37,339 nucleotides of DNA, taken from positions 1 through 37,339 of IMG/VR virus record IMGVR_UViG_2585427777_000002. One strand, given 5' to 3'. Position 1 is the stretch's first letter; the number at the start of each line of letters is the position of its first letter. Shown here piece after piece: positions 8,216 through 33,089 of the stretch. The position numbers were made by a program, and so were the translations under genes. A model generated the notes under the pieces. That model saw only the letters and a list, made by a program, of their open reading frames with translations. It made no database searches and was not told the origin of the DNA. The stretch is from a virus (Duplodnaviria; Heunggongvirae; Uroviricota; Caudoviricetes).

Positions 8216-8224
8216 GATAGTTCC

Positions 8225-8495
8225 GTTTTGCACATCCCTGTGCCGCCGCCCGTCAGAAGAATCCTGCTTTGTCGTTGATGTATTCCGCGTGGGTCTGGAT
8301 ATCACGCAGGCATTTACTCACACCGACGATGTAGCAGAACATAGTGGTCAGCTCCGCCGCCGCGCCCGATACGTCGTGCCCGTCTTCCTGTAACTGGTTC
8401 AGCAAATTCATCAGCAGTGAGTTCTCCGTCAGGCCGAGAACACCAGACGGCGAGTGAATCAGGCTACGGTAGCCGGGCTTCAGTGGGGCACTGTA
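8225..8495. repeat. right arm of about 270-bp inverted repeat (3' end of AntA-type antirepressor gene plus about 28 bp)
   Basis: Reverse complement matches 7003..7275. Confidence 0.85.
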
Positions 8496-8903
8496 TTCTT
8501 TTTTGTCTTCCAGCTTGATCGCCTCCATAATGGCGGGCATGAAGCCTGACAAGACCTTCTCCACTTTTGTTTCTTGTTGTCTTAAACGTTTCTCGCATTC
8601 AATGAAGTAGCGTCGTACCTGACGACCTTTTTCGTTACGCTCGACCATCGCCAGCTCTTTGGCTGTATCGAGGGTTAGGTGGTAGTCTTTTGCAGGACGG
8701 CCTCTGCCTATTTTTTCCCGAACTTGGGAAATAATCATAAAGTCTTGATTTTCAACGAAGCCATATTCAGCAATTCGTTCGACAATCCACGAAGCAAATC
8801 GCTTACCCACATCGAGGAAAGTGTGTAAATCACGGGCATTAACGAGAAGAGCGGTTTCGTTGGATATAGTGCCGTTGAATACGGGGATGAGTTGAGCGTT
8901 CAT
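8253..8903 (-). CDS. antirepressor with AntA/AntB-type N-terminal domain
   Basis: 216 aa; N-terminus ARDLHTFLDVGKRFASWIVERIAEYGFVENQDF typical of AntA-type antirepressors; C-terminal 80 aa shared with 6553..7245. Confidence 0.85.
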   Translation of the reverse strand: MNAQLIPVFNGTISNETALLVNARDLHTFLDVGKRFASWIVERIAEYGFVENQDFMIISQVREKIGRGRPAKDYHLTLDTAKELAMVERNEKGRQVRRYFIECEKRLRQQETKVEKVLSGFMPAIMEAIKLEDKKEYSAPLKPGYRSLIHSPSGVLGLTENSLLMNLLNQLQEDGHDVSGAAAELTTMFCYIVGVSKCLRDIQTHAEYINDKAGFF

Positions 8904-9173
8904 GATGGCGTCTCCACTTAGCGAATTACATCACCACCGCTGAGACCAATCAGATGGTGGTGAACTGAACGGAGTTGGTCTTACCGGCCTAAGTGGTACC
9001 GGCGTCCTTTCGGACCCCCATTCAGCCCACCATAATTCTGGCATGACTGTGCTATACGCATAAAAAAACCACGTCTGGCGTGGTATGCGCCACTTAGTAA
9101 TCCGGGAGACCAATCCCGGCACTGGATTTTGCCAGTGCCTGATTACTATGGCACAAGAGGAATGCGATGTAAA
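8904..9173 (-). promoter_or_regulatory. structured 5' leader with attenuator upstream of the AntA-type antirepressor gene (paralogue of 6287..6552)
   Basis: Same three-helix arrangement as the left copy; attenuator region (about 9062..9095) has stems GTGG/CCAC and CCACG/CGTGG plus T7 run, and a downstream hairpin GGTCC-gaaa-GGACC replaces GGCACC-gaaa-GGTGCC. Confidence 0.5.
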
Positions 9174-9190
9174 TTTACCGCAAAGGTAAT
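9174..9190. promoter_or_regulatory. operator-like palindrome TTTACCGCAAAGGTAAT at the AntA antirepressor promoter
   Basis: Perfect TTACC-N5-GGTAA; inverted counterpart of the 6270 site. Confidence 0.6.
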
Positions 9191-9217
9191 GATAGACACA
9201 GACAAACATTAAAATCA

Positions 9218-9231
9218 ACCATATTTGGTTA
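9218..9231. promoter_or_regulatory. palindromic motif AACCATATTTGGTT (second motif family)
   Basis: Read directly; abuts a TTGATT -35-like hexamer of the minus-strand antirepressor promoter and lies upstream of gene 9337. Confidence 0.45.
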
Positions 9232-9336
9232 ATTCGTGTAAAAGAGCCAGCAGCGAGAAATTGTGCCGCGACGTAAAATAACGAGCATCTGCTGGCTTAC
9301 AACCAGCGATGTTTCAAATTTGTCACTACTATCAAC

Positions 9337-9735
9337 GTGCCATTCCACGGCGCAGAACTTTATGTTGTCAATCACAACGGCGAACCGTACACCCCAATGA
9401 AACCTATCGTTGAGGGAATGTGTCTAGACTGGAAATCTCAACATAAGAAGATTTCTCAACGCTTCTCGAAGGGTATGGTGGAAATCACCATACCTTCTGC
9501 CGGAGGGGTGCAAGCCATGATTTGTATGGCTTTACGAAAATTGGCAGCTTGGTTGAACAGCATCAGTCCAAACAAAGTCCGCCCTGAAATCCGCGACAAG
9601 GTAATCCAGTATCAGGAAGAGTGTGATGATGTGCTCTACGAATACTGGACTAAAGGCCATGTGGTTAACCCACGCAAAGCTAAAAAGGCGTTGCCGGGTA
9701 AAATCACTACTGAGCAACAGGAGGTATACACTTAA
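9337..9735 (+). CDS. P22 antirepressor N-terminal-domain-like protein (short, start uncertain)
   Basis: Motif MKPIVEGMCLDWKSQHKKI resembles the N-terminal domain of P22-type antirepressors; ORF opens with GTG and has no convincing RBS. Confidence 0.55.
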   Translation: MPFHGAELYVVNHNGEPYTPMKPIVEGMCLDWKSQHKKISQRFSKGMVEITIPSAGGVQAMICMALRKLAAWLNSISPNKVRPEIRDKVIQYQEECDDVLYEYWTKGHVVNPRKAKKALPGKITTEQQEVYT

Positions 9736-9759
9736 CACTTGATCACATTAGCACAAAAC

Positions 9760-9776
9760 ATTACCTTTAAGGTAAT
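9760..9776. promoter_or_regulatory. operator-like palindrome ATTACCTTTAAGGTAAT upstream of gene 9796
   Basis: Perfect TTACC-N5-GGTAA 20 bp upstream of the start; -35-like TTGATC 17 bp before it. Confidence 0.6.
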
Positions 9777-22782: not shown

Positions 22783-23075
22783 TCCTGTTCACTGGCCTCT
22801 TTGGCCATCTTCAAATACTGTTCAGGGCAATGCGCCATAACGCGCTGAAACAGTTCCAGCGCCAGATTGCGTTGCCCCTCATTAAATGCCATTGCCATAG
22901 CGTCCATCGGTGAGATAGCGGAAAACACACGGCCTTTCTCCAGCACCGACCAGACAACGCGACGCCCCTGTTCACTGCTCATGACAAAGCGAATGTCATC
23001 AATTTCACGCTGCGCCATGTCACGTTGCTTACGGGCGTTTTCTTCTTTCAGTTGATCGTCTTCGTAATCTGTCAT
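22779..23075 (-). CDS. hypothetical small acidic protein
   Basis: 98 aa ORF translationally coupled between portal and scaffold. Confidence 0.5.
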   Translation of the reverse strand: MTDYEDDQLKEENARKQRDMAQREIDDIRFVMSSEQGRRVVWSVLEKGRVFSAISPMDAMAMAFNEGQRNLALELFQRVMAHCPEQYLKMAKEASEQE

Positions 23076-24751
23076 TGTGATTGCCCACCCTGACCACTAA
23101 CTGCATTCGCCATAGCTGACAACACACTCGGATCCGAAGTTTTAGCTTCGCTTAGCGTCTTGGCCCCCTGTGCCGCCGCCATCCCCATCGCCATCATTTG
23201 TTGCTGCTGTTGTTGCTGTGCCCGTTGCTGGCGAGCCTGCTCAACCTGTTCCTGCGGAACAATGACGGTTGGAGACACTCCGGACATATCAGCGAATGCA
23301 TCGATCGCCTGATCAACGTTGAGTTTGTCGAGAGCTTCTGGTTTCGCTTGCGCAAGTTGACCAATGAAGTTGACCGTAGACGCCAGACTGGACAGGCCGA
23401 TAGACTTCTGCGCCTGAGCCATGACGGAAATGTATTCGACCTTCAGGGGCATACCTTCCATCGCGTCAGGCGGTGGCGGCAGCATGTTTTTACGCACCAT
23501 CATCGAGAAAGCGCGGTCAATGAGAGGATTAAGACATTCGTCGTTCAGACGCTCCAGAACCGGCCCCAACATCAGAAGTTTTTCTTCTTTCATTTCGATC
23601 ACTGCTTCAACAGGCATCGAGCGGGTATTGATGTTCTGCAACATCATGAACAGATCGACAAAGTAGGCGCTGTTAATGATTTGACGAGTGTCCTGAATGT
23701 CTGCCACCAAATCTGCTGTACTGGGGTTAACCAGATAAGCAGGCCTGAAACCATCCTGACCAGTAATCTGATCGATATACGTGATGTCGCCAGGAAGAAG
23801 GGAGGCACGCTGATTCTTGAGGGAAGTCGGAGCAACCATCGGCGGATTGGTGGCTTTATCAATCAACTGCGACTTGCGCTTCTGGAGAAGCTGCAATGCC
23901 TTAACAGGTCCAAGCGCCAGCATACCCGGGCATGATGATCCATAAACATCTTCGCCGTTAACTTCCCAGCGCGGAGCCATAATTGGAAACTGATCGAATC
24001 CGGACTCACGCAACAACTTGTCGTTATCGCCACCAACCTCGTAATAAACCGATTTGAATGGCTTGTTCTTGCTATCCAGCTTCGATGTATCGCGGTCAAT
24101 GTTCGGGTAAACCGAATGCATCACTTCAATCCACTTCTCGTAGGTGCCGCTTTCCCACATGCTTTTTACGGATTCGCTGACGTTATTTAGCCCGAACTCC
24201 TGAACAAGCTGACGAACAGTCATAGAGAACTTGCGAAAACAGGTGTCAACACTGCCACGAGGTGAGTTAGCCAGGTAGTAACTGCCTATCGGGAATGGCA
24301 TTGTGCGAATGATGTCCTCGTCATCCTCCAGCACTGCCATTGCACCAGTGCTGTATGTGCCGAGGCTTCCGTATAACTGCGGCAGAGACTGATAGAGATT
24401 CGACTTATTGAACATATCGTTCATGCGGTTCTGCACCGCCTAAAGCCACAACTTAACAGGGCCATAATCCATCATTTCAGGATCTGGCGTAGCCAGGCGA
24501 AACCACGGACGCGCGGGGCTTGTGATGCCTGACATCATGCCGCTGGCGAGAGTGCGCGCCGCCATAGTCCCGGTCGAATCAATAATACGTGTATTGCGTC
24601 GATCGTTACGGTTGACCTCAGAAGTCAGAAAGCGGGAACCACGCGGGTTGATGTAATCACTCAACTCGCGCCAGTGCGGCTCGAACGATTGACGCTCGCT
24701 TTCAAGTTGTGCGAACTGTTTGTTCAATCGCTCTTTAGTTGTTTCCGCCAT
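23072..24751 (-). CDS. portal protein (T7 gp8-like), reading frame interrupted by an in-frame TAG at 24440..24442
   Basis: ORFs 24440..24751 and 23072..24436 are in the same frame with a single TAG between them; the N-terminal piece carries ARTLASGMMSGITSPARPWFRL resembling the T7 gp8 N-terminal region; Q-rich C-terminus; GGAG RBS before ATG 24751. Confidence 0.75.
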
Positions 24752-24972: not shown

Positions 24973-25061
24973 ATCAATGACTCCGTACGCAATTAAATTA
25001 TTACCAATTTAACCACATATGATTTATTTATCGTAGACAGTTGACATTTAACGCGCGAATT

Positions 25062-25078
25062 ATTACCTTTAAGGTAAC
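25062..25078. promoter_or_regulatory. operator-like palindrome ATTACCTTTAAGGTAAC with upstream TTGACA
   Basis: Perfect TTACC-N5-GGTAA; TTGACA at 25041..25046; divergent region between gene 24972 and the tRNA. Confidence 0.6.
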
Positions 25079-25399
25079 TAAAGAGTTCATTCCGGTTACT
25101 AACCTGACTGGCTTGTCGTTAAATTGAACAGGTGGAGTGAGCTTTTATTTTGAGCAGTACGGCGTATGGCACATGCGACGATAGCGGTCTGGATACGTTT
25201 AAGGGGCACCCTCCCTTGCTCGGGCAAACGAACCAGGTAGCCGGAATGTGCAAGTCGAGCGGTTTTATTCCGCGCACGGGGATTCACCATCCCGGCGATT
25301 CGGTGTGACGCCTCGGAAGAGACGAGGGTACAACGATGAGAGCATTTATGGAGCTGCGACAAAGTGTGGCGCATTAACAGGCTAAGTGCTCTCAGCGTT

Positions 25400-25476
25400 G
25401 TGGCATTAGCTCAGCTGGACAGAGCAACCGCCTTCTAAGCGGTTGGTCGCAGGTTCGAATCCTGCATGCCACGCCA
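25400..25476 (+). tRNA. tRNA-Arg (anticodon UCU), phage-encoded
   Basis: 77 nt folded by eye: 7-bp acceptor stem GTGGCAT/ATGCCAC, D-arm GCTC/GAGC, anticodon stem ACCGC/GCGGT with loop CTTCTAA, T-arm GCAGG-TTCGAAT-CCTGC, discriminator G and CCA end. Confidence 0.9.
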
Positions 25477-25519
25477 GAATCACGCCCAAGGACCGTGATG
25501 CCAGAAGTTCCAGGTGCTT

Positions 25520-25561
25520 GGCGGTGATAGTTTCCCTTGAAGGACTATCACCGCCCTTTTT
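25520..25561 (+). terminator. rho-independent terminator downstream of the tRNA
   Basis: 12-bp stem GGCGGTGATAGT/ACTATCACCGCC followed by CTTTTT. Confidence 0.65.
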
Positions 25562-25639
25562 ACAGCAGGACGCCATTGCGATGACTTCATGCTGTAAACC
25601 AGTACAGCCACGGAAGGCATAACTCATTGCTTCCAGTTC

Positions 25640-25663
25640 GCCCGGTTCGCCGGGCATTTTTTT
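25640..25663 (+). terminator. hairpin plus T-run immediately upstream of gene 25675 (terminator or attenuator)
   Basis: GCCCGG-ttcg-CCGGGC followed by TTTTTTT, then the RBS AAGGTGA. Confidence 0.5.
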
Positions 25664-25674
25664 AAGGTGAGATC

Positions 25675-26094
25675 ATGAAGACAATTGATATGTTGGCTAA
25701 GTATCTAAATGAATGGCCATTAAAATATTCTCGTATCGTTCAGGCTGAAGACTGCATTTTTTATGGCGTTCTTGCTGGTAATGAAATGCATTACGAAGTA
25801 ATTCAGAGTGAGGGACTGGCTGGGTTAACTCTTAGCGAAGACCATGGTACTAGCGTTACGTTCCATGACTGGATAACAGCACAACGTTCTGAAATGGAAA
25901 AAGGCGATGTTTTTGATATTTCTCGCGCTGTTTACGCTAAAGCAAAAAGTGATAATGATTACATGAGCGAACACTTATACAACATGAAGTTGCAATGCCT
26001 GCATGCGGCGCTTATTCAGAATGGGCACTTCGATAAAACAAGTGCCATCAATATTGCGGAAGCCATCAACGCTGGATTTAATGCCATTAAGTAA
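25675..26094 (+). CDS. hypothetical protein (cargo gene between terminase and portal)
   Basis: 139 aa with AAGGTGA RBS; opposite strand to the structural operon; flanked by terminators; no family recognised. Confidence 0.6.
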   Translation: MKTIDMLAKYLNEWPLKYSRIVQAEDCIFYGVLAGNEMHYEVIQSEGLAGLTLSEDHGTSVTFHDWITAQRSEMEKGDVFDISRAVYAKAKSDNDYMSEHLYNMKLQCLHAALIQNGHFDKTSAINIAEAINAGFNAIK

Positions 26095-26098
26095 CACC

Positions 26099-26110
26099 GT
26101 GACATGTCAC
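26099..26110. repeat. 12-bp perfect palindrome GTGACATGTCAC
   Basis: Second copy of the palindrome at 8204..8215. Confidence 0.5.
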
Positions 26111-26114
26111 AAAC

Positions 26115-26141
26115 AGCCAGCCGATGAGCTGGCTTTGTTTT
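26115..26141 (+). terminator. rho-independent terminator of gene 25675..26094
   Basis: Stem AGCCAGC/GCTGGCT followed by TTGTTTT. Confidence 0.6.
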
Positions 26142-26184: not shown

Positions 26185-27660
26185 TTAAGCATATGGATCG
26201 TAATCTGTGATGGCCTTGCCTTGCTGGTTCTGCTGCCCGGGAATTCGCAGACGCTTTGACACAGGGAAAGCAAACGTCAGCAGTAGCGCATCGCCTTTAC
26301 CAGGAGAACGCCCAAGCCGCTCCTTGATATCTTCCTTCGGTTCGATAACGATTTTACCGTCCACTCGAACTTTATACTCTGCCGCCGACAGGTCGTCCGC
26401 TGTTTCCTGGTCATCCAGCATCCCGCCCAGCCTCAGCCATGTCTTGCATGAGTTGAACATCTCCCCACGCTTGTTGAGCATCTGCGGGTCAGTAGACGCG
26501 CCACCGAACGGAACAAGTTGCCATGTGCGCCCCCAACCATCACCGATTGACTTCAGACCGGTACCGTAACCGAAGTCGATGAACACCGCGTCAGCCTGAT
26601 ACTGGTCTTCAAAGTCAGCGATACGCTTCGCCATAATCAGATCGTCGGTGGTCTTGTTACCAGTCCATAGCACCTTACTGTGCAGCCCCTGCCGCAGGTA
26701 TATCACAGCGTCATCAACGCCGGAGTATGCCGGGTCAACGCCGATTATCACCGGAGCATGTGCCACCTGCGCAGCGGTTACCACCCGTTTCATTGCCTCG
26801 TCAGTAAGACCGGTAGGGATAAACTGCAATTCAGATGCATCAGGGAATATGCCGCGCACACGGATTTTAACGAAGTCGCTGTCTTCCCCGTAGTCATCAA
26901 CCCATTTCTGCAACTGCTGTTTGTTAGTGCCTTCCACCGTCCGGCTGTCAATCTGCACAGTTTTCCAGCGGTGTTTATATTTGCGGAAACATTCGCGGAA
27001 ACGCCCGGTATTACGCGTCGGGTTTCCGAACGCCACCCAGATAATCTCAGTGTCTTCGTCCGTTAGCGCACCCTCGGCAACTTCCCACACCAGATCCGCA
27101 ATGTTCGACGCTTCATCGAATACCACGATGATGCGTTTGCGCTCGTTGTGTAGTCCGGCAAATGCCTCAGTGTTGTGCTCAGACCAGGGGATTGCGTCAG
27201 CTCGCCAACGCTTGTCGTGCCCAGGGTCATTGCTGTACATCGCGGTAGCGGTACAGGTAAACCAGTCTTTCGTGATAGCAAGGTTCGACCACTTGATAAT
27301 TTCCGGCCAGGTCTTCGTTCGTAGCTGGTTGTCGGTGTTGGCGGTCACCACGACCTTACAATCCTCGCAAGTGGACATGCCCCAGTTGATCAACATTGAG
27401 ATGAATGCTGATTTACCAATACCGTGACCCGAAGCACGTGCCAGCATAAGCGGCTGATAGCGCGTCTCTGGATTCTGCAGGTGATCACGTATCTCTCGGA
27501 ACGCATCAGCCTGCCACTGACGTGGGCCGGTAGCATGTGCCAGTTCAGTCCCCTCTTCCCCCCACGGGAACGCATAGAGGGCATAGCCAAGCGGATCGTG
27601 AGTGAACCCTGCAATATCCTCGATTAACTGCTCTTCAGGAGATAACGCTGTATCTGTCAC
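26185..27660 (-). CDS. terminase large subunit
   Basis: 491 aa; ATPase-like N-terminal half and nuclease-like C-terminal half; translationally coupled to the small subunit gene. Confidence 0.85.
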   Translation of the reverse strand: MTDTALSPEEQLIEDIAGFTHDPLGYALYAFPWGEEGTELAHATGPRQWQADAFREIRDHLQNPETRYQPLMLARASGHGIGKSAFISMLINWGMSTCEDCKVVVTANTDNQLRTKTWPEIIKWSNLAITKDWFTCTATAMYSNDPGHDKRWRADAIPWSEHNTEAFAGLHNERKRIIVVFDEASNIADLVWEVAEGALTDEDTEIIWVAFGNPTRNTGRFRECFRKYKHRWKTVQIDSRTVEGTNKQQLQKWVDDYGEDSDFVKIRVRGIFPDASELQFIPTGLTDEAMKRVVTAAQVAHAPVIIGVDPAYSGVDDAVIYLRQGLHSKVLWTGNKTTDDLIMAKRIADFEDQYQADAVFIDFGYGTGLKSIGDGWGRTWQLVPFGGASTDPQMLNKRGEMFNSCKTWLRLGGMLDDQETADDLSAAEYKVRVDGKIVIEPKEDIKERLGRSPGKGDALLLTFAFPVSKRLRIPGQQNQQGKAITDYDPYA

Positions 27661-28256
27661 TGATTACCATCCTGACGTTCTTTGAGTCGCTTCCTGGCTG
27701 CTGCTATGCGATCAGCAATTGTCACATTCACATTAACATCCAGGCGTTCTTTGAATGCGTTGACGTCGACGTGCTTACCAATCAGTTCGAGGTTCTTCAC
27801 CTTGTCAGGCCATTTAATTTTTTTGAGGATTGTCTCTATCGAATCCTCGTTCATGTTCATGATGGTCGATGACAGATCAAAGCCGCTAAGCGTAGTGCGC
27901 CAGATTTTCGGCCACTCGCGGATTGGCTTAAGGCTCCCATCGTCGTTGAGGATGTCGATCACGTCCATCTGGTCGATCTCCACCAGGCGCATGAGAACGT
28001 AATCAGCACTGACGCGCATTCGTTTGTTGCGCTCCTCCATCAACTCGGCAATCCGTTTCTGAATGCGTTCATCGCGCATCATGACACTGGCTTTAACTGC
28101 CGCTGTATTTGGGGAGAATCCTGCGTTAATCGCAGCCTGAGTCTGATTTTCAGGCGTTTTGATGTATGACTGGCAATAAGCCTCCTGCATTGCTGTTAGT
28201 GGCTTAAATTGCGTTGATTTGCGTTTATAGGTTTTAGGTTCAGCAGGCATCATAAC
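27657..28256 (-). CDS. terminase small subunit
   Basis: ORF 27657..28331; start taken at MMPAEPKTY because upstream codons lie in the operator/direct-repeat region; motif QEAYCQSYIKTPENQTQAAINAGFSPNTAAVKASVMMR typical of Terminase_2-type small subunits. Confidence 0.75.
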   Translation of the reverse strand, partial: VMMPAEPKTYKRKSTQFKPLTAMQEAYCQSYIKTPENQTQAAINAGFSPNTAAVKASVMMRDERIQKRIAELMEERNKRMRVSADYVLMRLVEIDQMDVIDILNDDGSLKPIREWPKIWRTTLSGFDLSSTIMNMNEDSIETILKKIKWPDKVKNLELIGKHVDVNAFKERLDVNVNVTIADRIAAARKRLKERQDGNQ

Positions 28257-28269
28257 CACCGTGGTAATA

Positions 28270-28286
28270 GTTACCGTTGTGGTAAT
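28270..28286. promoter_or_regulatory. operator-like palindrome GTTACCGTTGTGGTAAT at the start of the packaging/structural operon
   Basis: Perfect TTACC-N5-GGTAA inside the direct repeat GTGGTAATAGT-N8-GTGGTAATAGT, just downstream of a minus-strand terminator. Confidence 0.55.
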
Positions 28287-28290
28287 AGTA

Positions 28291-28322
28291 CCATGCAAAA
28301 TAAAGCCGCCATAGTTGGCGGC
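28291..28322 (-). terminator. rho-independent terminator separating early genes from the terminase operon
   Basis: Stem GCCGCC/GGCGGC followed on the minus strand by TTTATTTTG, directly after the stop of gene 28328..28930. Confidence 0.6.
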
Positions 28323-28327
28323 AGTAT

Positions 28328-28930
28328 TCAAAGTCCATCAAATTCATCGTAAAAACTCTCGTCAAGATACCCTTCCCATTTACCGCGAATGAAAATTACA
28401 TCCTCGCCGCAAGGGTGCTGACTGTCGATAACTATATCCCTCCTGGCGCAACCATACTTATGCATGAGAAATTTAACCTCTTTCGGAAAATTTGCTGAGT
28501 TATCTCTCATATCTTCAAGGTCGTAGCGTATTTTTGGCATAACACCTTCGTAATATTCACGCTGTTCGTTGAGTTTTGATTTTGTCTCTTCAAGCTCAGC
28601 AACCAGTTTTCGAAGCCCTTCAATCTCACCATTGCGAGCAATGAGGTCGCGGCACATGCTTTCGTTCTCATCCAGCAGTGCCAGCACGGTAGCTGGACTG
28701 GCTGCGGCGATGAATTCAGCATTGGCCTGCTGTTCCATTTGGAAATCGTCATCGAAACCGCTTTCAGGATGTGCTCCTTCAATTCTGCAAATGGGAAGAT
28801 ATCCAACAACTTCACGATGAATTAACGCATCATCACAATCAAATCGGCTCTCTCCATATTCGAGCGACCATACACCACACGTTGCTTTTTCTGCCTTAGC
28901 ACGCAGTGCCTGATAATCAATCTTGCTCAC
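28328..28930 (-). CDS. hypothetical early protein (possibly Ead/Ea22-like)
   Basis: 200 aa; N-terminus MSKIDYQALRAKAEKATCGVW recalled as similar to Ead/Ea22-like prophage proteins; translationally coupled. Confidence 0.55.
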   Translation of the reverse strand: MSKIDYQALRAKAEKATCGVWSLEYGESRFDCDDALIHREVVGYLPICRIEGAHPESGFDDDFQMEQQANAEFIAAASPATVLALLDENESMCRDLIARNGEIEGLRKLVAELEETKSKLNEQREYYEGVMPKIRYDLEDMRDNSANFPKEVKFLMHKYGCARRDIVIDSQHPCGEDVIFIRGKWEGYLDESFYDEFDGL

Positions 28931-29541
28931 TGGTTGCCTCCTTTGCGAAGCTCAGCGGCGAAGGCTACTGCGTGATCATGATGTTCAAGTGTGTATGCAC
29001 ACTCCGCAAACATCTCCACACCCTGTGCCCGCACTTCAGACAGGCATTTGCGAAACTCGGAAACGTACTGTTCGACGCTCATTCCCCAGCTAAGTGGACA
29101 TTCATTGAATGTTTCGCCTTCGTGCTCTTCATCAGGTAGCTCTTTGGTAAAGAACTCACGTTCAATGGCGTGGAGTGTGTCAGCAAAACGACGTAAGTTA
29201 CTCAAACCTGTCGTAATGGAGAATTCAGGAGCATCACATCCGACGCCCATCTGCTGATAAACGGCGGTTTTGAAGGCCTTAAGCCCCGCATTCTCCGCCG
29301 CCAGCGCCGAAAACTTCTCGTGTGCCAACTTAACAGCCGAATCAGCCTGCTTAATTGACTCAATCGCTCTCTGGTGGTCTTCGGCCAGCGCATTAGCACG
29401 CACCAGTTGCACTTCAAGTTGCGTTGCCAAATCGCTGATCAGCTTTGCCACACTGCGCATATCAACGGCACCACATTCTGCTTTCAGTTCCGAAGCCATC
29501 TCATGCCCGGCGGCAACTAACCATTTGATATTACTTTCCAT
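28927..29541 (-). CDS. hypothetical early protein
   Basis: 204 aa ORF with GAGGG RBS; no motif recognised. Confidence 0.55.
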   Translation of the reverse strand: MESNIKWLVAAGHEMASELKAECGAVDMRSVAKLISDLATQLEVQLVRANALAEDHQRAIESIKQADSAVKLAHEKFSALAAENAGLKAFKTAVYQQMGVGCDAPEFSITTGLSNLRRFADTLHAIEREFFTKELPDEEHEGETFNECPLSWGMSVEQYVSEFRKCLSEVRAQGVEMFAECAYTLEHHDHAVAFAAELRKGGNQ

Positions 29542-29602
29542 CTTTACCCTCGCTTATCCACATAACTTATTGATTACATTGATAACTAAAAAGATCGTCG
29601 AT

Positions 29603-29947
29603 TCAGAACTCTTCGATGTTCCAGCCACCACCTGCTTTCTTTGGTTTAACCGTTACCCCGATGATTCGGAACGGATACTGATCTGCGGCGACTTTGGTTT
29701 TCACCCTGGCGTCGTCAGTCCAGAAACCTTTCACTTCGTGCAGTTCCATCTCGCCGGTGGCGAGCATCACAGCGAAATCGGGCGTATAGAACGTGTTGTC
29801 AGCTAACCGCAGCTTGATACCCTCGAATCGATACCAGGCGATTTCCCCTGCACGTTTACGAAGCTCAAGGTGCTGGCAATACGCAGATTCTGTTTTGTTC
29901 ATCTGGCCTGTTTTGAGTCGACCAAGAGCCTGTATCTGTTTTCTCAT
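29603..29947 (-). CDS. PD-(D/E)XK-type nuclease-like protein (DUF1064-like)
   Basis: 114 aa; motif YTPDFAV...GEMELHEVKG fits the PD-(D/E)xK pattern. Confidence 0.55.
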   Translation of the reverse strand: MRKQIQALGRLKTGQMNKTESAYCQHLELRKRAGEIAWYRFEGIKLRLADNTFYTPDFAVMLATGEMELHEVKGFWTDDARVKTKVAADQYPFRIIGVTVKPKKAGGGWNIEEF

Positions 29948-29949
29948 GA

Positions 29950-29966
29950 TTTACCCCTGAGGTAAT
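29950..29966. promoter_or_regulatory. operator-like palindrome TTTACCCCTGAGGTAAT overlapping the RBS of the nuclease gene
   Basis: Perfect TTACC-N5-GGTAA 3 nt upstream of the start codon at 29945..29947. Confidence 0.55.
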
Positions 29967-30011
29967 TAAAAACCACATAAGACACGAAATCAATAGAGTT
30001 TAGAATATTTT

Positions 30012-30028
30012 ATTACCTAATAGGTAAT
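30012..30028. promoter_or_regulatory. operator-like palindrome ATTACCTAATAGGTAAT
   Basis: Perfect TTACC-N5-GGTAA, 62 bp from the 29950 site. Confidence 0.6.
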
Positions 30029-30064
30029 TATCAAGACGTAAAAAAATGCGCTATCGCGCTGGTA

Positions 30065-30841
30065 TTACTTGATAAATCCTGCCGCCTTTCCCCGCCTGTA
30101 TTCCTCCATCAGCCACTGCGCCGGTGTTATTCCCCCCAGGGTAGCGGCGTTAGGCATACACCCGAAACTTCGCCCTGGTGGATGGTAAACGTCTCTCCCT
30201 GTGTCCGGAGGCGTACTCATGGGTTCTGGCTTTGCCTGTATGCTGATCACCGGATCGGGTATCTGCTGTCCGGAAGCCACCTTTTTCGCCCAATCATCAA
30301 GCAGCCTGCGCGCATGTTTCTCAACCTCAATCTCGCTAAGCTGGCGCTGATACATTGCACGGCGGGTATCACATACGACCCAGTACATAACCGGATGCCG
30401 CCACGGGAATCTTTCGGGACCACCAGGATATAAACTTTTTTCCTTGCTGTACCGGTGAAACTCCGCCATCACATCGTCAATGGTGACGCCAAGAACCATC
30501 TTGCTGTCTTTACACCACTTGATAAATTGCCCTGGCGACGGCCAGAACGGAGATTCACTGGCGCGGGCGTGGCGCATACCAGCGTTAACCTGTTCCATTG
30601 TAGTGATCCCATTCTCCAGAAACGCAAGCATCCATTGCTTACGGAATTCATTAAGTTTGTTCTGCTCCCTTATGGTCGAAACGCTTGCAGGAAATGCAGC
30701 CTGTAACTGGACAAATAGTTCATTGAAAATTCTAGCGACCTGCTCCTTTTTGCCATTGCTGTCACGCCGCTCTTCATGCACAGCAACACCATGCTCACGT
30801 AAGCGATCGTACTCATTGAGAAGTTCTGGAGTTGATTTCAT
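30065..30841 (-). CDS. lambda P-like replication protein (helicase loader)
   Basis: Extended match to lambda P as recalled: AFLENGITTMEQVNAGMRHARASESPFWPSPGQFIKWC versus AFRENGITTMEQVNAGMRVARRQNRPFLPSPGQFVAWC. Confidence 0.85.
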   Translation of the reverse strand: MKSTPELLNEYDRLREHGVAVHEERRDSNGKKEQVARIFNELFVQLQAAFPASVSTIREQNKLNEFRKQWMLAFLENGITTMEQVNAGMRHARASESPFWPSPGQFIKWCKDSKMVLGVTIDDVMAEFHRYSKEKSLYPGGPERFPWRHPVMYWVVCDTRRAMYQRQLSEIEVEKHARRLLDDWAKKVASGQQIPDPVISIQAKPEPMSTPPDTGRDVYHPPGRSFGCMPNAATLGGITPAQWLMEEYRRGKAAGFIK

Positions 30842-31643
30842 CCCACACCCCTTCTATCCAGTCAGTGTTATTCCAGTCAAGCTCATCGCTTTTCCCGACG
30901 TTTTTTGATTTTCCCCTGATATGATTTACGTGCCTGGCGAATTTTTGTTCCCACTGAACCTGCGTGAACACTTTGCCCTCAGCCATCCAGTAATCCCGGA
31001 ATGCAGCAAGTTCAGCAGGTGTAAATTCCGGTTCCGGCAGGGCCGTTCCCCACAGCGCAGCACGCCGTCGAAAATCCGGCGATGGATGCCAGCCATCGGT
31101 CATCGGAAATTTCCCAATAGGTTCACTCAGGCCATCCAGAAATGCAGGTTCTGCCACCTGCAACGGCGTACCGTTCGCTTCACTGGTCGGATCACTCTCG
31201 CGCGCGTGTGCTATGTGTGGGGTTTTATATATATCTTCCTCTTCCTCTTCCTCTGGTAACTCCTTTTGTAACGCTGTTGGCGTTACTTTTTGCGTTACTC
31301 GTTTTCGATGCTCTGCCACTCTTCTATTCGTAAGTGCACGTTTTTTCGATGATTCTCCATTGTGTCGCTCAAAGTTTGGAAGAATTAGTTTGCCGTCATG
31401 ATAAGCAAGCCATCCGACGCTAATGAGGGCGTCAGCAAATCCTGTAATAAAAGCGAGTCTATCAAGTACTCCTTTTGTAACGCTGCCAGCGTTACCGTCT
31501 ATTGTTTGCTGGTCAGCCCATGCCCATATACGAACCAGCTTTCCAAGAACAGCATCTGGATCAATACCCAGAATTTCTGCTATCTGAAAAATTTCAGGTT
31601 TATCAGGAGTGATAACTTCAACCTTAATCCAGCTGCTTGCCAT
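30813..31643 (-). CDS. O-like replication initiation protein (replisome organiser)
   Basis: Directly precedes the P-like gene; AGAGGGG RBS before MASSWIK; acidic EEEEEE linker; iteron-like repeats inside the coding region. Confidence 0.65.
   Translation of the reverse strand: MASSWIKVEVITPDKPEIFQIAEILGIDPDAVLGKLVRIWAWADQQTIDGNAGSVTKGVLDRLAFITGFADALISVGWLAYHDGKLILPNFERHNGESSKKRALTNRRVAEHRKRVTQKVTPTALQKELPEEEEEEDIYKTPHIAHARESDPTSEANGTPLQVAEPAFLDGLSEPIGKFPMTDGWHPSPDFRRRAALWGTALPEPEFTPAELAAFRDYWMAEGKVFTQVQWEQKFARHVNHIRGKSKNVGKSDELDWNNTDWIEGVWDEINSRTSQ
31225..31495. other. putative replication origin inside the O-like gene
   Basis: TTGTAACGCTGTTGGCGTTAC at 31266..31286 and TTGTAACGCTGCCAGCGTTAC at 31476..31496, each preceded by TCCTT; extra GCGTTAC half-site at 31292; AT-rich TTTTATATATAT plus CTTCCT x3 at 31225..31258. 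Confidence 0.45.
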
Positions 31644-31881
31644 AGGTTTCCCCTCTTGCACTCTTTAGTGCACAAGCAAATTCATTACGATGGCGGTTGG
31701 CGCTATTCATTGCACATTCAACACATGTTCCGTTCAGAACATACCTTTCAGAGAGATGGCCGTGACGGCACCGCTTTCCTGTGAAATAGCGATTTAACCC
31801 GGCTTTTGCGGCCTCCATTCTGGTTACTATCTTCAATTTTTCCGCCCCCTTTTTGTTATTGATATTGGCTATTTTGCACAA
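31624..31881 (-). CDS. hypothetical Cys/His-rich (possible zinc-binding) protein, start uncertain
   Basis: ORF contains CRHGH...CVEC; likely start at MEAAKAG (31818); position between the cro-like gene and the replication genes. Confidence 0.4.
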   Translation of the reverse strand: MCKIANINNKKGAEKLKIVTRMEAAKAGLNRYFTGKRCRHGHLSERYVLNGTCVECAMNSANRHRNEFACALKSARGETYGKQLD

Positions 31882-31913: not shown

Positions 31914-31931
31914 TATTACCTTTGAGGTACG
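31914..31931. promoter_or_regulatory. imperfect operator-like site ATTACCTTTGAGGTACG
   Basis: Left half-site perfect, right half-site GGTAC. Confidence 0.4.
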
Positions 31932-31985
31932 AATAGATATGAAAAGACCGCCGGATGGCGGTCTACAGAGGGTTGTGGCTGGATA

Positions 31986-32251: not shown

Positions 32252-32316
32252 TTCACCCATAAGGTAACAAAAATCAAGGATAGTTACCTATGAGGTGCAT
32301 TTACCTGTTGGGTAAT
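32252..32316. promoter_or_regulatory. tripartite operator region between the cro-like and repressor genes (OR-like)
   Basis: Three sites: TTCACCCATAAGGTAAC (32252..32268, imperfect), GTTACCTATGAGGTGCA (32283..32299, imperfect), TTTACCTGTTGGGTAAT (32300..32316, perfect). Confidence 0.65.
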
Positions 32317-32370: not shown

Positions 32371-32955
32371 ATGAAAAGTATCCAGGACGTCCGCAGGCAA
32401 AATCTCAACGACTTGATCGACCGTGAATTCAATGGTGTTCAGACGCGGATGGCAGAAAAACTTGGAACTCAGGCAAATCTGGTAAACCGCTGGGCTCTTG
32501 GCAAGAAGGTTATCGGCGACCAGGTTGCACGAAAAATTGAAGCTGCCGCCAATAAACCCCGTAACTGGCTTGATATTGATCGCTCGCTTTCTCAGGAGGG
32601 TTTTCAGCCTGTCGGCCCGAGCGATATAGGTCAGCTGGCGGCTCACAACCTGGAACGCTGGATGAGCGAAAGCCGCGACCTTTCAACGCAGGGAAAACTA
32701 CACCGCGCATCCGGCGTCGCCCAGGTGACAATCAGCCGCCTGTTAAACAATGAAGTCAGCGTTTCCATTTCCACCCTGGAGAATGTTGCATCCGCATTCG
32801 GGCGTCACGGCTATGAATTACTGATTCACCCGCACGACCCTGCGACTATCAACTATGATCGCTCGCGCTACGCATTGTTACCTGAAACAGAGAAGGCAAA
32901 GATCGAAAGTTACATTGAATTTGTCATCAACCAGAACGAAAAAAGAAAACAATAA
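32371..32955 (+). CDS. prophage repressor with two tandem XRE-type HTH domains and no peptidase domain
   Basis: 194 aa; two Cro/C1-type HTH-like segments (TRMAEKLGTQANLVNRWALGKK and LHRASGVAQVTISRLLNNEVSVS); no S24 Ala-Gly or Ser/Lys motifs seen; divergent from the cro-like gene. Confidence 0.7.
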   Translation: MKSIQDVRRQNLNDLIDREFNGVQTRMAEKLGTQANLVNRWALGKKVIGDQVARKIEAAANKPRNWLDIDRSLSQEGFQPVGPSDIGQLAAHNLERWMSESRDLSTQGKLHRASGVAQVTISRLLNNEVSVSISTLENVASAFGRHGYELLIHPHDPATINYDRSRYALLPETEKAKIESYIEFVINQNEKRKQ

Positions 32956-32975: not shown

Positions 32976-32999
32976 AAGCCGCCTCATGGCGGCTTTTTT
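32976..32999 (+). terminator. rho-independent terminator after the repressor gene
   Basis: Stem AAGCCGCC/GGCGGCTT with loop TCAT followed by TTTTTT. Confidence 0.7.
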
Positions 33000-33011
33000 A
33001 TTGCCTATACG

Positions 33012-33089
33012 ATTACCTTATGGGTAATTTTTTAACTCATATCTATTGACATCAAACCAGATACGCATAATTATTACCTCAACGGTAAC
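33012..33089. promoter_or_regulatory. early-left promoter with two operators (OL-like)
   Basis: Perfect sites ATTACCTTATGGGTAAT (33012..33028) and ATTACCTCAACGGTAAC (33073..33089) flanking TTGACA (33046..33051) and a -10-like AATTAT/ATAATT. Confidence 0.65.

What the first reader, a model, noticed from the sequence alone, without database searches (positions are those of the whole stretch)
28256..28330. Boundary between early and packaging operons: terminator, direct repeat and operator before the small terminase gene
A minus-strand terminator (28291..28322) follows gene 28328..28930, then an 11-bp direct repeat GTGGTAATAGT with an embedded operator, then the small terminase start. Late transcription may therefore begin at an operator-controlled promoter here, not by antitermination.
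Basis: inference. Interest (0 to 1): 0.4.

Follow-up and report, generated by a model that had tools for sequence, protein, structure and literature searches.

The report
Terminator plus repressor-controlled promoter before terminase
This is the junction between the early genes and the DNA-packaging genes of an epsilon15/phiV10-like temperate phage: a transcription terminator followed by a probable promoter covered by two binding sites for the phage repressor, an arrangement already annotated in phage epsilon15 and therefore ordinary for this phage group.

Summary
On the minus strand an Ead/Ea22-like gene stops at 28328. It is followed by a canonical intrinsic terminator (hairpin 28322..28305, T-run to 28296), the exact repeat GTGGTAATAGT twice, and the small terminase start (ATG 28253/28250).

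The repeat is not a unit in its own right. It comes from two tandem copies of the phage operator TTACC-N5-GGTAA: O1 (28285..28271, perfect) and O2 (28267..28253, one mismatch, over the ribosome-binding site). The motif has 16 matches at one mismatch or fewer in the window, against 0.66 expected.

O1 abuts an extended -10 element, TGgTACTAT. In about 30 distinct relatives the TG, TA..TAT and operator half-sites stay fixed, while spacers, the O1-O2 gap and the repeat itself vary. The same -10/operator register occurs at the clear early promoter TTGACA-17-AATTAT (33046..33074).

Similar terminator-then-operator junctions recur at about 31945, 32976 and 30060. No Q-type antiterminator was found.

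The epsilon15 GenBank record already annotates the homologous terminator, repressor site and terS. SPC32H, whose repressor structure is solved, has the same layout.

The parts
28328..28930 (-). Last gene of the upstream (early) unit, an Ead/Ea22-like protein of 200 aa
   Evidence: ORF. Pfam PF13935, 4.9e-20. This gene varies between relatives; the mosaic boundary lies just upstream of the hairpin.
28296..28322 (-). Intrinsic (rho-independent) terminator: stem GCCGCCA/TGGCGGC, loop ACTA (28322..28305), T-run TTTATTTTG (28304..28296)
   Evidence: Terminator scan. MFE fold. Conserved in most relatives. The homologous hairpin is annotated as a terminator in epsilon15 at 39646..39672.
28285..28293 (-). 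Candidate extended -10 promoter element TGgTACTAT (TG 28293-28292; hexamer TACTAT 28290..28285). There is no recognisable -35, because the hairpin occupies that position.
   Evidence: Sequence. Scored. TG and TA.TAT are conserved in relatives apart from a single variant (TACCAT, L070), while the n and third hexamer positions vary G/T/A and C/G/T. Activity is inferred, not shown.
28271..28285 (.). Operator O1, TTACCACAACGGTAA on the minus strand, a perfect match to TTACC-N5-GGTAA. It would span about -7 to +8 of the candidate promoter.
   Evidence: The homologous site is annotated protein_bind 'repressor' in epsilon15 at 12..27. Half-sites are conserved in relatives (one variant has AGTAA, L086) while the spacer varies.
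28253..28267 (.). Operator O2, TTACCACGGTGGTTA on the minus strand, one mismatch. It overlaps the Shine-Dalgarno GGTGG (28260..28256) and reaches the first ATG.
   Evidence: Nearly all relatives have a near-consensus site here, with the mismatch in a different half-site: TTACT...GGTAA in the epsilon15 group.
28261..28289 (.). The two copies of the 11-bp direct repeat GTGGTAATAGT (28261-28271 and 28279-28289). Each is one half-site plus flank of O2 and O1.
   Evidence: Not conserved as a repeat in relatives. Chance probability about 0.3 on its own.
27657..28253 (-). Small terminase subunit gene (Terminase_2), start ATG 28253 or the conserved ATG 28250. The 224-aa TTG-start ORF that runs through the hairpin is an artefact.
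   Evidence: epsilon15 and SPC32H annotate the short form. Relatives show a 2-nt length difference between O1 and O2 and loss of the first ATG.
26185..27660 (-). Large terminase subunit gene, overlapping the terS stop codon. It is the second gene of the packaging unit.
   Evidence: Annotated as terminase large subunit in the matching phage records.
32371..32955 (+). Repressor gene (Rep) whose product is expected to bind the operators
   Evidence: Pfam HTH_3. Full-length match to the SPC32H repressor, PDB 5D50, E = 3.5e-42. The gene is flanked by operators at 32253, 32301, 33013 and 33074.
29951..30034 (-). A second cassette of the same kind, between the lambda-P-like gene and the DUF1064 gene: promoter TTGATA-16-TAAAAT (30034..30007) with operator 30013..30027 in its spacer, plus operator 29951..29965
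31916..31964 (-). A third cassette, after the cro-like gene: terminator hairpin 31964..31945, then operator 31930..31916 (one mismatch)
32976..33088 (+). A fourth cassette, after the repressor gene: terminator 32976..32995, operator 33013..33027, promoter TTGACA-17-AATTAT (33046..33074), operator 33074..33088. The last T of the -10 is the first T of the operator, as at terS.

Best explanation
The region is a transcription-unit junction of an epsilon15/phiV10-like temperate podophage (genus Uetakevirus).

Proposed mechanism:
1. Transcripts of the upstream early unit (replication genes, DUF1064 gene, Ead-like gene) end at a strong intrinsic terminator.
2. Directly after the T-run lies a -35-less extended -10 promoter, TGgTACTAT.
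3. Its start site and initial transcribed region are covered by two tandem palindromic operators for the phage repressor Rep: O1 (perfect) and O2 (one mismatch, over the terS ribosome-binding site), 18 bp apart centre to centre.
4. In the lysogen, Rep occupies O1 and O2 and keeps terS-terL silent. Rep is a tetramer in the SPC32H homologue and could bind both sites at once.
5. When Rep is inactivated (by an antirepressor in this phage group), RNA polymerase starts near 28278 and transcribes the packaging genes.

The 11-bp direct repeat has no role of its own. It arises because the two operators share a half-site and similar flanks.

Shown by sequence and comparison: the terminator structure, the over-representation of the operator motif, its conservation pattern, and homology of the repressor to SPC32H Rep. 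Inferred: promoter activity, the start site, Rep occupancy at this site, and one tetramer bridging O1 and O2.
For: - Terminator.
- Operator motif: 16 matches versus 0.66 expected, and every exact match in this window lies between predicted genes, several next to promoter-like sites.
- The epsilon15 record annotates the homologous hairpin as a terminator and the homologous O1 as a repressor site upstream of terS. SPC32H has the same layout.
- The window's repressor is a full-length homologue of the SPC32H repressor, PDB 5D50.
- Substitution pattern in about 30 distinct relatives from at least 10 genera: TG, TA.TAT, TTACC, GGTAA and the O2 half-sites are conserved almost without exception. The n of TGn, the third -10 base, both spacers and the O1-O2 gap (3-5 nt) vary.
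- The element persists where the hairpin is absent (L062, L082, L083, L086).
- The same -10/operator register occurs at TTGACA-17-AATTAT (33046-33074), TTGCAA-17-TATATT (operator 6271) and TTGATT-18-TATCAT (operator 9175).
- Similar terminator/operator junctions occur three more times.
- Tandem operators 17-20 bp apart recur in immunity regions of relatives.
- No antiterminator or late activator was detected.
- Rep of SPC32H is described as binding DNA as a tetramer (PMC9638917).
Against: - There is no -35 hexamer (1-2 of 6 matches), and the -10 is only 4 of 6. The consensus scan that requires both hexamers finds no promoter in 27500-29500.
- The candidate's score (8.5) is reached by roughly 10% of random positions.
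- The AT at the end of the -10 may be conserved as operator flank rather than as promoter.
- Relatives are not independent samples.
- No transcript 5' end, reporter or binding data for this site could be found. The primary papers (Kropinski 2007; Kim & Ryu 2013; Kim 2016) are not in the held library.
- Many small early proteins have no known function, so an unrecognised activator or antiterminator cannot be excluded.
Confidence: 0.6

Rival explanations
1. Roadblock without a promoter. The operators are real Rep sites but no transcription starts here. terS-terL are expressed by read-through of the hairpin from the upstream early promoters, possibly helped by an unrecognised antitermination factor. 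Rep bound at O1/O2 in the lysogen only blocks leaky read-through, in the manner of mycobacteriophage L5 stoperators.
For: The sites lie downstream of a terminator and inside what would be the 5' leader. No -35 is present and the -10 is weak. Several early proteins have unknown function.
Against: - The TG and TA.TAT positions are conserved while adjacent bases vary.
- The -10/operator register is identical to that of clear promoters in the same genome.
- The operators are symmetric and lie between genes, unlike asymmetric, orientation-dependent stoperators.
- The hairpin plus T-run is a canonical strong terminator.
- No Q-like or N-like protein was found.
Confidence: 0.22
2. Packaging signal. 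The direct repeats upstream of terS are binding sites for the small terminase (a pac site like SPP1 pacL), which would explain why deposited genomes of this group start here.
For: TerS belongs to the Terminase_2 family, and the epsilon15 record's own note gives an HHpred match to the small terminase of Bacillus phage SF6. The epsilon15, SPC32H, SPN1S and phiV10 records all begin within or next to this intergenic region.
Against: - The repeat as such is not conserved; only the operator half-sites are.
- The same motif occurs 16 times in the window, mostly next to promoter-like sites, whereas a pac site should be unique.
- Record starts differ by tens of bases between phages and fall exactly after the terminator in epsilon15 and SPC32H, which looks like an annotator's choice.
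- No data on physical ends were found.
Confidence: 0.05
3. Chance. The repeat and palindrome are coincidental features of an AT-rich spacer.
For: An exact 11-mer repeated within 50 bp appears in about 30% of simulated windows.
Against: The operator motif is enriched about 24-fold, with no shuffle reaching the observed count. Its position at -32/-14 relative to the terS start is conserved across genera.
Confidence: 0.02

Closest known systems
Salmonella phage epsilon15 (AY150271.2): terminator 39646..39672, repressor-binding site 12..27, terS 47..643
   Same: It is the homologous locus. It has the same hairpin (GGCCGCC-GACTAT-GGCGGC + TTTGTTTT), the same TGtTACTAT, the same O1 (TTACCAAAACGGTAA) and a one-mismatch O2 (TTACTTCGGTGGTAA) before the terS ATG. 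The record annotates the terminator and the O1 repressor site.
   Different: The upstream gene differs because of mosaicism. O2 carries its mismatch in the other half-site. The 11-bp direct repeat is absent (only TATTAC is shared). O2 and the -10 are not annotated in the record.
Salmonella phage SPC32H Rep/Ant switch (repressor structure PDB 5D50)
   Same: The window's repressor aligns over its full length with SPC32H Rep (E = 3.5e-42). SPC32H carries the same operator consensus at its immunity region and upstream of terS. Antirepressor genes are present in the window.
   Different: The window has several Ant/Bro-like genes rather than one. SPC32H O2 has two mismatches. Whether Rep binding to the terS site was ever tested could not be checked, because the papers are not held.
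Phage P1 C1 repressor with operators dispersed over the genome (from general knowledge, not tested here)
   Same: One repressor controls many separate transcription units through operators scattered round the genome rather than only at an immunity region.
   Different: P1 operators are asymmetric 17-mers, and P1 late genes, including pacA, depend on the late activator Lpa. Here the operators are symmetric and one pair sits directly at the terminase gene.
Mycobacteriophage L5 gp71 stoperators (from general knowledge, not tested here)
   Same: Many repressor sites lie outside the immunity region and silence the prophage globally. Sites downstream of a transcription start can block elongation.
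   Different: Stoperators are asymmetric, orientation-dependent and lie within transcribed regions. The sites here are palindromic, lie between genes, and sit in a fixed register with -10-like hexamers.
Lambda-type late control (Q antiterminator, pR', qut, tR')
   Same: A terminator lies between the early genes and the packaging and structural genes.
   Different: No Q homologue was found. The lysis genes are not at this junction. Repressor operators lie directly in front of terS.

Membership tests
epsilon15/SPC32H-type Rep operator | Palindrome with half-sites TTACC and GGTAA separated by 5 bp (17-bp form ATTACC-N5-GGTAAT) | tested here: met
   O1 at 28271..28285 has 0 mismatches and O2 at 28253..28267 has 1 mismatch. 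The annotated epsilon15 sites show the same consensus.
epsilon15/SPC32H-type Rep operator | Multiple copies in the same genome, including around the repressor gene | tested here: met
   16 matches versus 0.66 expected. Sites at 32253, 32301, 33013 and 33074 flank the repressor gene 32371..32955.
epsilon15/SPC32H-type Rep operator | A cognate repressor of the SPC32H Rep family is encoded by the phage | tested here: met
   phmmer against PDB: 5D50_A, E = 3.5e-42, residues 1-191 aligned.
epsilon15/SPC32H-type Rep operator | The homologous position is recognised as a repressor site in the type phage | tested here: met
   epsilon15 protein_bind 'repressor' at 12..27, upstream of terS 47..643.
epsilon15/SPC32H-type Rep operator | Rep protein physically binds the site | not testable with these tools
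   This needs EMSA or footprinting. No held paper reports it for this site.
Intrinsic (rho-independent) terminator | GC-rich stem-loop immediately followed by a T-run on the transcribed strand | tested here: met
   7-bp stem with 6 GC pairs, 4-nt loop, then TTTATTTTG. It is present in the MFE and centroid folds.
Intrinsic (rho-independent) terminator | Located downstream of a stop codon and conserved in relatives | tested here: met
   It starts 5 nt after the TGA. It is conserved in most relatives, though absent in four loci.
Intrinsic (rho-independent) terminator | Transcripts actually end there | not testable with these tools
   This needs 3'-end mapping.
Sigma-70 extended -10 promoter | TG at -15/-14, one base, then a -10 hexamer with A at position 2 and T at position 6 | tested here: met
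   TGgTACTAT at 28293..28285. TG and TA.TAT are conserved in relatives apart from one variant.
Sigma-70 extended -10 promoter | A -35 hexamer is optional for this class (it is required for a standard sigma-70 promoter) | tested here: not met
   The best -35 is ATGGCG or TATGGC, 1-2 of 6 matches, inside the hairpin. The site therefore does not qualify as a standard -35/-10 promoter.
Sigma-70 extended -10 promoter | A primary transcript 5' end about 7 nt downstream of the hexamer | not testable with these tools
   This needs 5'-end mapping or in vitro transcription.
pac site / TerS recognition repeats (SPP1 pacL-like) | Repeat units conserved with the terminase and unique to the packaging region | tested here: not met
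   The 11-mer repeat is polymorphic or absent in relatives with 83-100% identical TerS. The conserved core is the operator motif, which occurs 16 times.
pac site / TerS recognition repeats (SPP1 pacL-like) | Physical genome ends or packaging series start at the site | not testable with these tools
   No virion read data are available, and no paper on Uetakevirus termini was found.
Lambda-type Q antitermination of late genes | A Q-family antiterminator gene upstream of the late operon | tested here: not met
   Pfam, PHROGs and NCBIfam scans of 29 proteins found replication proteins, DUF1064, Ead-like, cro-like, PerC-like and antirepressor proteins but no Q. The scans covered the early, regulatory, packaging and accessory regions. 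The virion-structure block and the lysis genes were not scanned.

The most novel reading that the evidence does not exclude
In this phage group a single repressor directly gates every transcription unit, including the packaging, structural and tailspike genes. It does so through serial terminator-operator-promoter junctions, with no dedicated late activator or antiterminator. Lytic timing would then be set only by promoter strength and operator affinity, for example the consistently imperfect O2.

A further twist is possible. RNA that reads through the terminator folds the two operator palindromes into a -20.7 kcal/mol hairpin that pairs the terS Shine-Dalgarno sequence and AUG. A transcript begun at the junction promoter lacks the 5' arm (-9.3 kcal/mol). 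Only promoter-initiated mRNA might therefore be translated efficiently.
Probability: 0.3. Interest if true: 0.45.

Novelty: already known. Interest (0 to 1): 0.2.

Why it matters
The finding shows that epsilon15/phiV10-like prophages, which are common in E. coli, Salmonella and other enterobacteria, are probably silenced unit by unit. The packaging genes carry their own repressor-controlled start rather than depending on a lambda-style antitermination cascade.

This matters in three practical ways. It affects how induction of these prophages is predicted. It bears on engineering phiV10- and SPC32H-type reporter phages. It also helps annotation: the 224-aa TTG-start terS model used in some records runs through a terminator, a promoter and two operators, and should be the form of about 197 aa.

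As a discovery it adds little, because the type phage's public record already marks the terminator and repressor site at this position.

Tried and rejected
- Literature. The epsilon15 genome paper (PMC2698709), Kim & Ryu 2013 (PMC3807360) and the 2016 PNAS structure paper are not held. Full-text searches gave no transcript mapping or terminus data for this genus. The ZX5 paper only mentions four software-predicted promoters.
- Covariation between immunity type and the terS-proximal sites. This was not informative. All relatives found, across at least 10 genera and including epsilon15 (whose repressor is reported as 42% identical to the phiV10-type repressor in PMC9782041), use the same TTACC-N5-GGTAA half-sites.
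- Known RNA families. None was found in 27000-30500, even at E <= 1.
- Standard -35/-10 scan. It found no promoter at the junction, which is why the extended -10 reading rests on conservation instead.
- The direct repeat as an independent element. Rejected, because its chance probability is about 0.3 and it is not conserved.
- The 224-aa TTG-start terS ORF (28331). Rejected, because relatives show a 2-nt length difference and hairpin loss inside it.
- RNA hairpin across O1 and O2 as a regulatory structure. It cannot be separated from the constraint that the two palindromes impose, so it is kept only as a low-probability idea.
- PerC-like protein (35666..35965) as a late activator. I considered this unlikely, because as far as I know (not tested here) PerC-family proteins act on host virulence regulators.
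Full report
**What the window is.** The region around the finding is 98% identical to the terminase region of the Escherichia phages phiV10, TL-2011b and vB_EcoP_ZX5. It is 80-86% identical to the Salmonella phages epsilon15, SPN1S and SPC32H (genus Uetakevirus). Almost all genes run on the minus strand. Reading that strand, the order is:
- a DnaT-domain replication protein (30813..31661)
- a lambda-P-like protein (30065..30841)
- a DUF1064 protein (29603..29947)
- a hypothetical protein (28927..29541)
- an Ead/Ea22-like protein (28328..28930)
- the small terminase (Terminase_2, 1e-29) and the large terminase (26185..27660)

**Checking the observation.** The minus strand reads as follows:
- TGA stop at 28330..28328
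- hairpin GCCGCCA-ACTA-TGGCGGC at 28322..28305
- T-run TTTATTTTG at 28304..28296
- CA, then TGG-TACTAT at 28293..28285
- TTACC-ACAAC-GGTAA at 28285..28271
- CTA
- TTACC-ACGGT-GGTTA at 28267..28253
- ATG at 28253 and a second ATG at 28250

The terminator scan reports the hairpin with 7 pairs, 6 of them GC. The fold of the 106-nt region has z = -6.4. The repeat GTGGTAATAGT occurs exactly twice, at 28261 and 28279, and nowhere else. By itself this is weak evidence, because 29.5% of Markov-simulated windows contain an exact 11-mer repeated within 50 bp.

**What the repeat really is.** The immunity region shows a repeated palindrome, TTACC-N5-GGTAA. Allowing one mismatch, it has 16 matches in the window against 0.66 expected, and no shuffle reaches that number. 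Two of the 16 lie in the finding: O1 (28271..28285, perfect) and O2 (28253..28267, one mismatch). The direct repeat is therefore two tandem operators, 18 bp centre to centre. O2 contains the Shine-Dalgarno GGTGG and touches the start codon.

**Who binds it.** The repressor gene (32371..32955) is flanked by operators. Its product aligns over its full length with the repressor of Salmonella phage SPC32H (PDB 5D50, E = 3.5e-42). A held paper summarises that this repressor binds its palindromic sites as a tetramer and is dismantled by an antirepressor (PMC9638917). The window encodes several Ant/Bro-like antirepressors.

**Already annotated elsewhere.** The epsilon15 GenBank record annotates a rho-independent terminator at 39646..39672, a protein_bind feature 'repressor / lysogeny' at 12..27 and terS at 47..643. 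Joining the record's ends gives GGCCGCCGACTATGGCGGC-TTTGTTTT-GCG-TGT-TACTAT-TACCAAAACGGTAA-TTA-TTACTTCGGTGGTAA-CA-ATG. This is the same architecture as in the window. SPC32H has it too. Seven further repressor sites are annotated in epsilon15, upstream of gp3/portal, the tailspike, a RuvC-like gene and in the immunity region. These correspond to sites found in the window.

**Is there a promoter?** A scan that requires both -35 and -10 hexamers finds nothing here, because the hairpin occupies the -35 position. However, TGgTACTAT is an extended -10 element (TG, one base, then a hexamer with A at position 2 and T at position 6). Three comparative observations support it.

1. About 30 distinct versions of the junction came from 80 IMG/VR contigs and 11 species-level genomes. 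The genera include Klebsiella, Citrobacter, Pseudocitrobacter, Scandinavium, Superficieibacter, Kluyvera, Pseudescherichia, Erwinia and Samsonia. In these, the TG, the TA and TAT of the hexamer (one variant reads TACCAT) and the operator half-sites are conserved. The base after TG varies (G/T/A), as does the third hexamer base (C/G/T). Both operator spacers, the O1-O2 gap (3-5 nt) and the 11-mer itself also vary.
2. Four loci lack the hairpin but keep TGnTAGTAT plus both operators.
3. The register, in which the last T of the -10 is the first T of the operator, is the same as at three better promoters. These are the early promoter TTGACA-17-AATTAT (33046..33074, 10 of 12 matches), TTGCAA-17-TATATT (operator 6271) and TTGATT-18-TATCAT (operator 9175).

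With this promoter, O1 would cover about -7 to +8 and O2 about +12 to +26, which are classical repressing positions. O2 is nearly always one mismatch from consensus, but in different half-sites in different lineages. This suggests it is maintained as a weaker partner site. Tandem operators 17-20 bp apart also recur in the immunity regions of relatives. That fits one tetramer binding two sites, but this is inference.

**A repeated design.** Terminator-then-operator junctions also occur at three other places:
- after the cro-like gene (terminator 31964..31945, operator 31916..31930)
- after the repressor gene (terminator 32976..32995, operators 33013 and 33074, with the promoter between them)
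- between the P-like and DUF1064 genes (promoter TTGATA-16-TAAAAT at 30034..30007 with operator 30013 in its spacer)

Pfam, PHROGs and NCBIfam scans of 29 proteins found no Q-type antiterminator or known late activator. The scans covered the regulatory, early, packaging and accessory regions, but not the virion-structure block or the lysis genes. The only 'activator' hit is a PerC-like protein. They do not prove it.

**Rivals.**
- Roadblock model. The operators could act only as roadblocks against read-through, with no promoter. This cannot be excluded without 5'-end mapping. It is disfavoured by the conserved TG/-10 and the shared register.
- pac-site reading. This is suggested by the Terminase_2-family TerS and by public records that begin here. 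It is disfavoured because only the operator half-sites are conserved and the motif is dispersed over the genome. Physical termini are unknown.
- Chance. This is excluded.

**Gene-model point.** The mechanical ORF (TTG 28331, 224 aa; used in the phiV10 record) runs through the hairpin and the operators. Relatives show a 2-nt length difference between O1 and O2 and loss of the first ATG, while ATGCC (28250) is conserved with GGTGG 5 nt upstream. The gene therefore starts at 28253 or 28250.

**RNA structure.** RNA spanning both operators folds into a long hairpin that pairs the Shine-Dalgarno sequence and AUG with the -10/O1-left sequence (-20.7 kcal/mol). A transcript started near 28278 lacks that arm (-9.3 kcal/mol). 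Any two tandem palindromes of this kind will do this, so it may be a by-product. No Rfam family matches.

**Verdict.** The feature is already known at the level of the type phage's public annotation. The additions here are the second operator over the ribosome-binding site, the conserved extended -10, the explanation of the direct repeat, and the recurrence of the junction design. Interest is low (0.2).

Noticed in passing
window 24440..24442 (minus strand; portal gene 24751..23072): The portal gene carries an in-frame amber codon (TAG) at codon 104, where phage EC.W1-9 has GAG. This is the only difference in 301 nt. The phage or prophage in this window therefore appears to have a portal nonsense mutation: it may be defective, an amber mutant, or the result of a sequencing error.
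   Followed up: partly
window 25034..26134 (+ strand): A unit runs antisense to the late genes, between terL and the portal gene. It consists of a promoter-like site (TTGACA-17-TACCTT or TAGACA-18-AATTAT) overlapping operator 25063..25077, a tRNA-Arg(tct) at 25400..25476, a strong hairpin at 25520..25555, a 139-aa gene at 25675..26094 and a terminator at 26115..26134. The single operator may control divergent transcription.
   Followed up: partly
window 5859..9775: This is a cluster of several Ant/Bro-like antirepressor genes on both strands (6508..7245, 8253..8903, 9337..9735, and partly 5859..6239), each near an operator. The operator regions at 6271 and 9175 look like inverted duplicates of each other.
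   Followed up: no
window 35666..35965 (+): A PerC-like small protein (Pfam PF06069, 6e-7; phrog_868 'transcriptional activator', 6.5e-62) sits in the early-left operon, next to a DNA methyltransferase gene. It may be a host-directed regulator carried by the phage.
   Followed up: partly
window 28215..28304 (minus-strand RNA): Read-through RNA across the two operators is predicted to form a -20.7 kcal/mol hairpin that pairs the terS Shine-Dalgarno sequence and AUG. A transcript started near 28278 lacks the 5' arm.
   Followed up: partly
all relatives: L003 (epsilon15), L164 (SPC32H), L084-L094: Phages whose repressors are reported as only 42% identical (PMC9782041), and prophages from at least 10 genera, all use the same operator half-sites TTACC/GGTAA. 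Heteroimmunity in this group, if it exists, is probably not set by operator specificity.
   Followed up: no
window 28331 / phiV10 record DQ126339.2 41..715: The phiV10 record annotates terS with the long 675-nt ORF, which reads through the terminator, promoter and operators. epsilon15 and SPC32H use the short form.
   Followed up: yes
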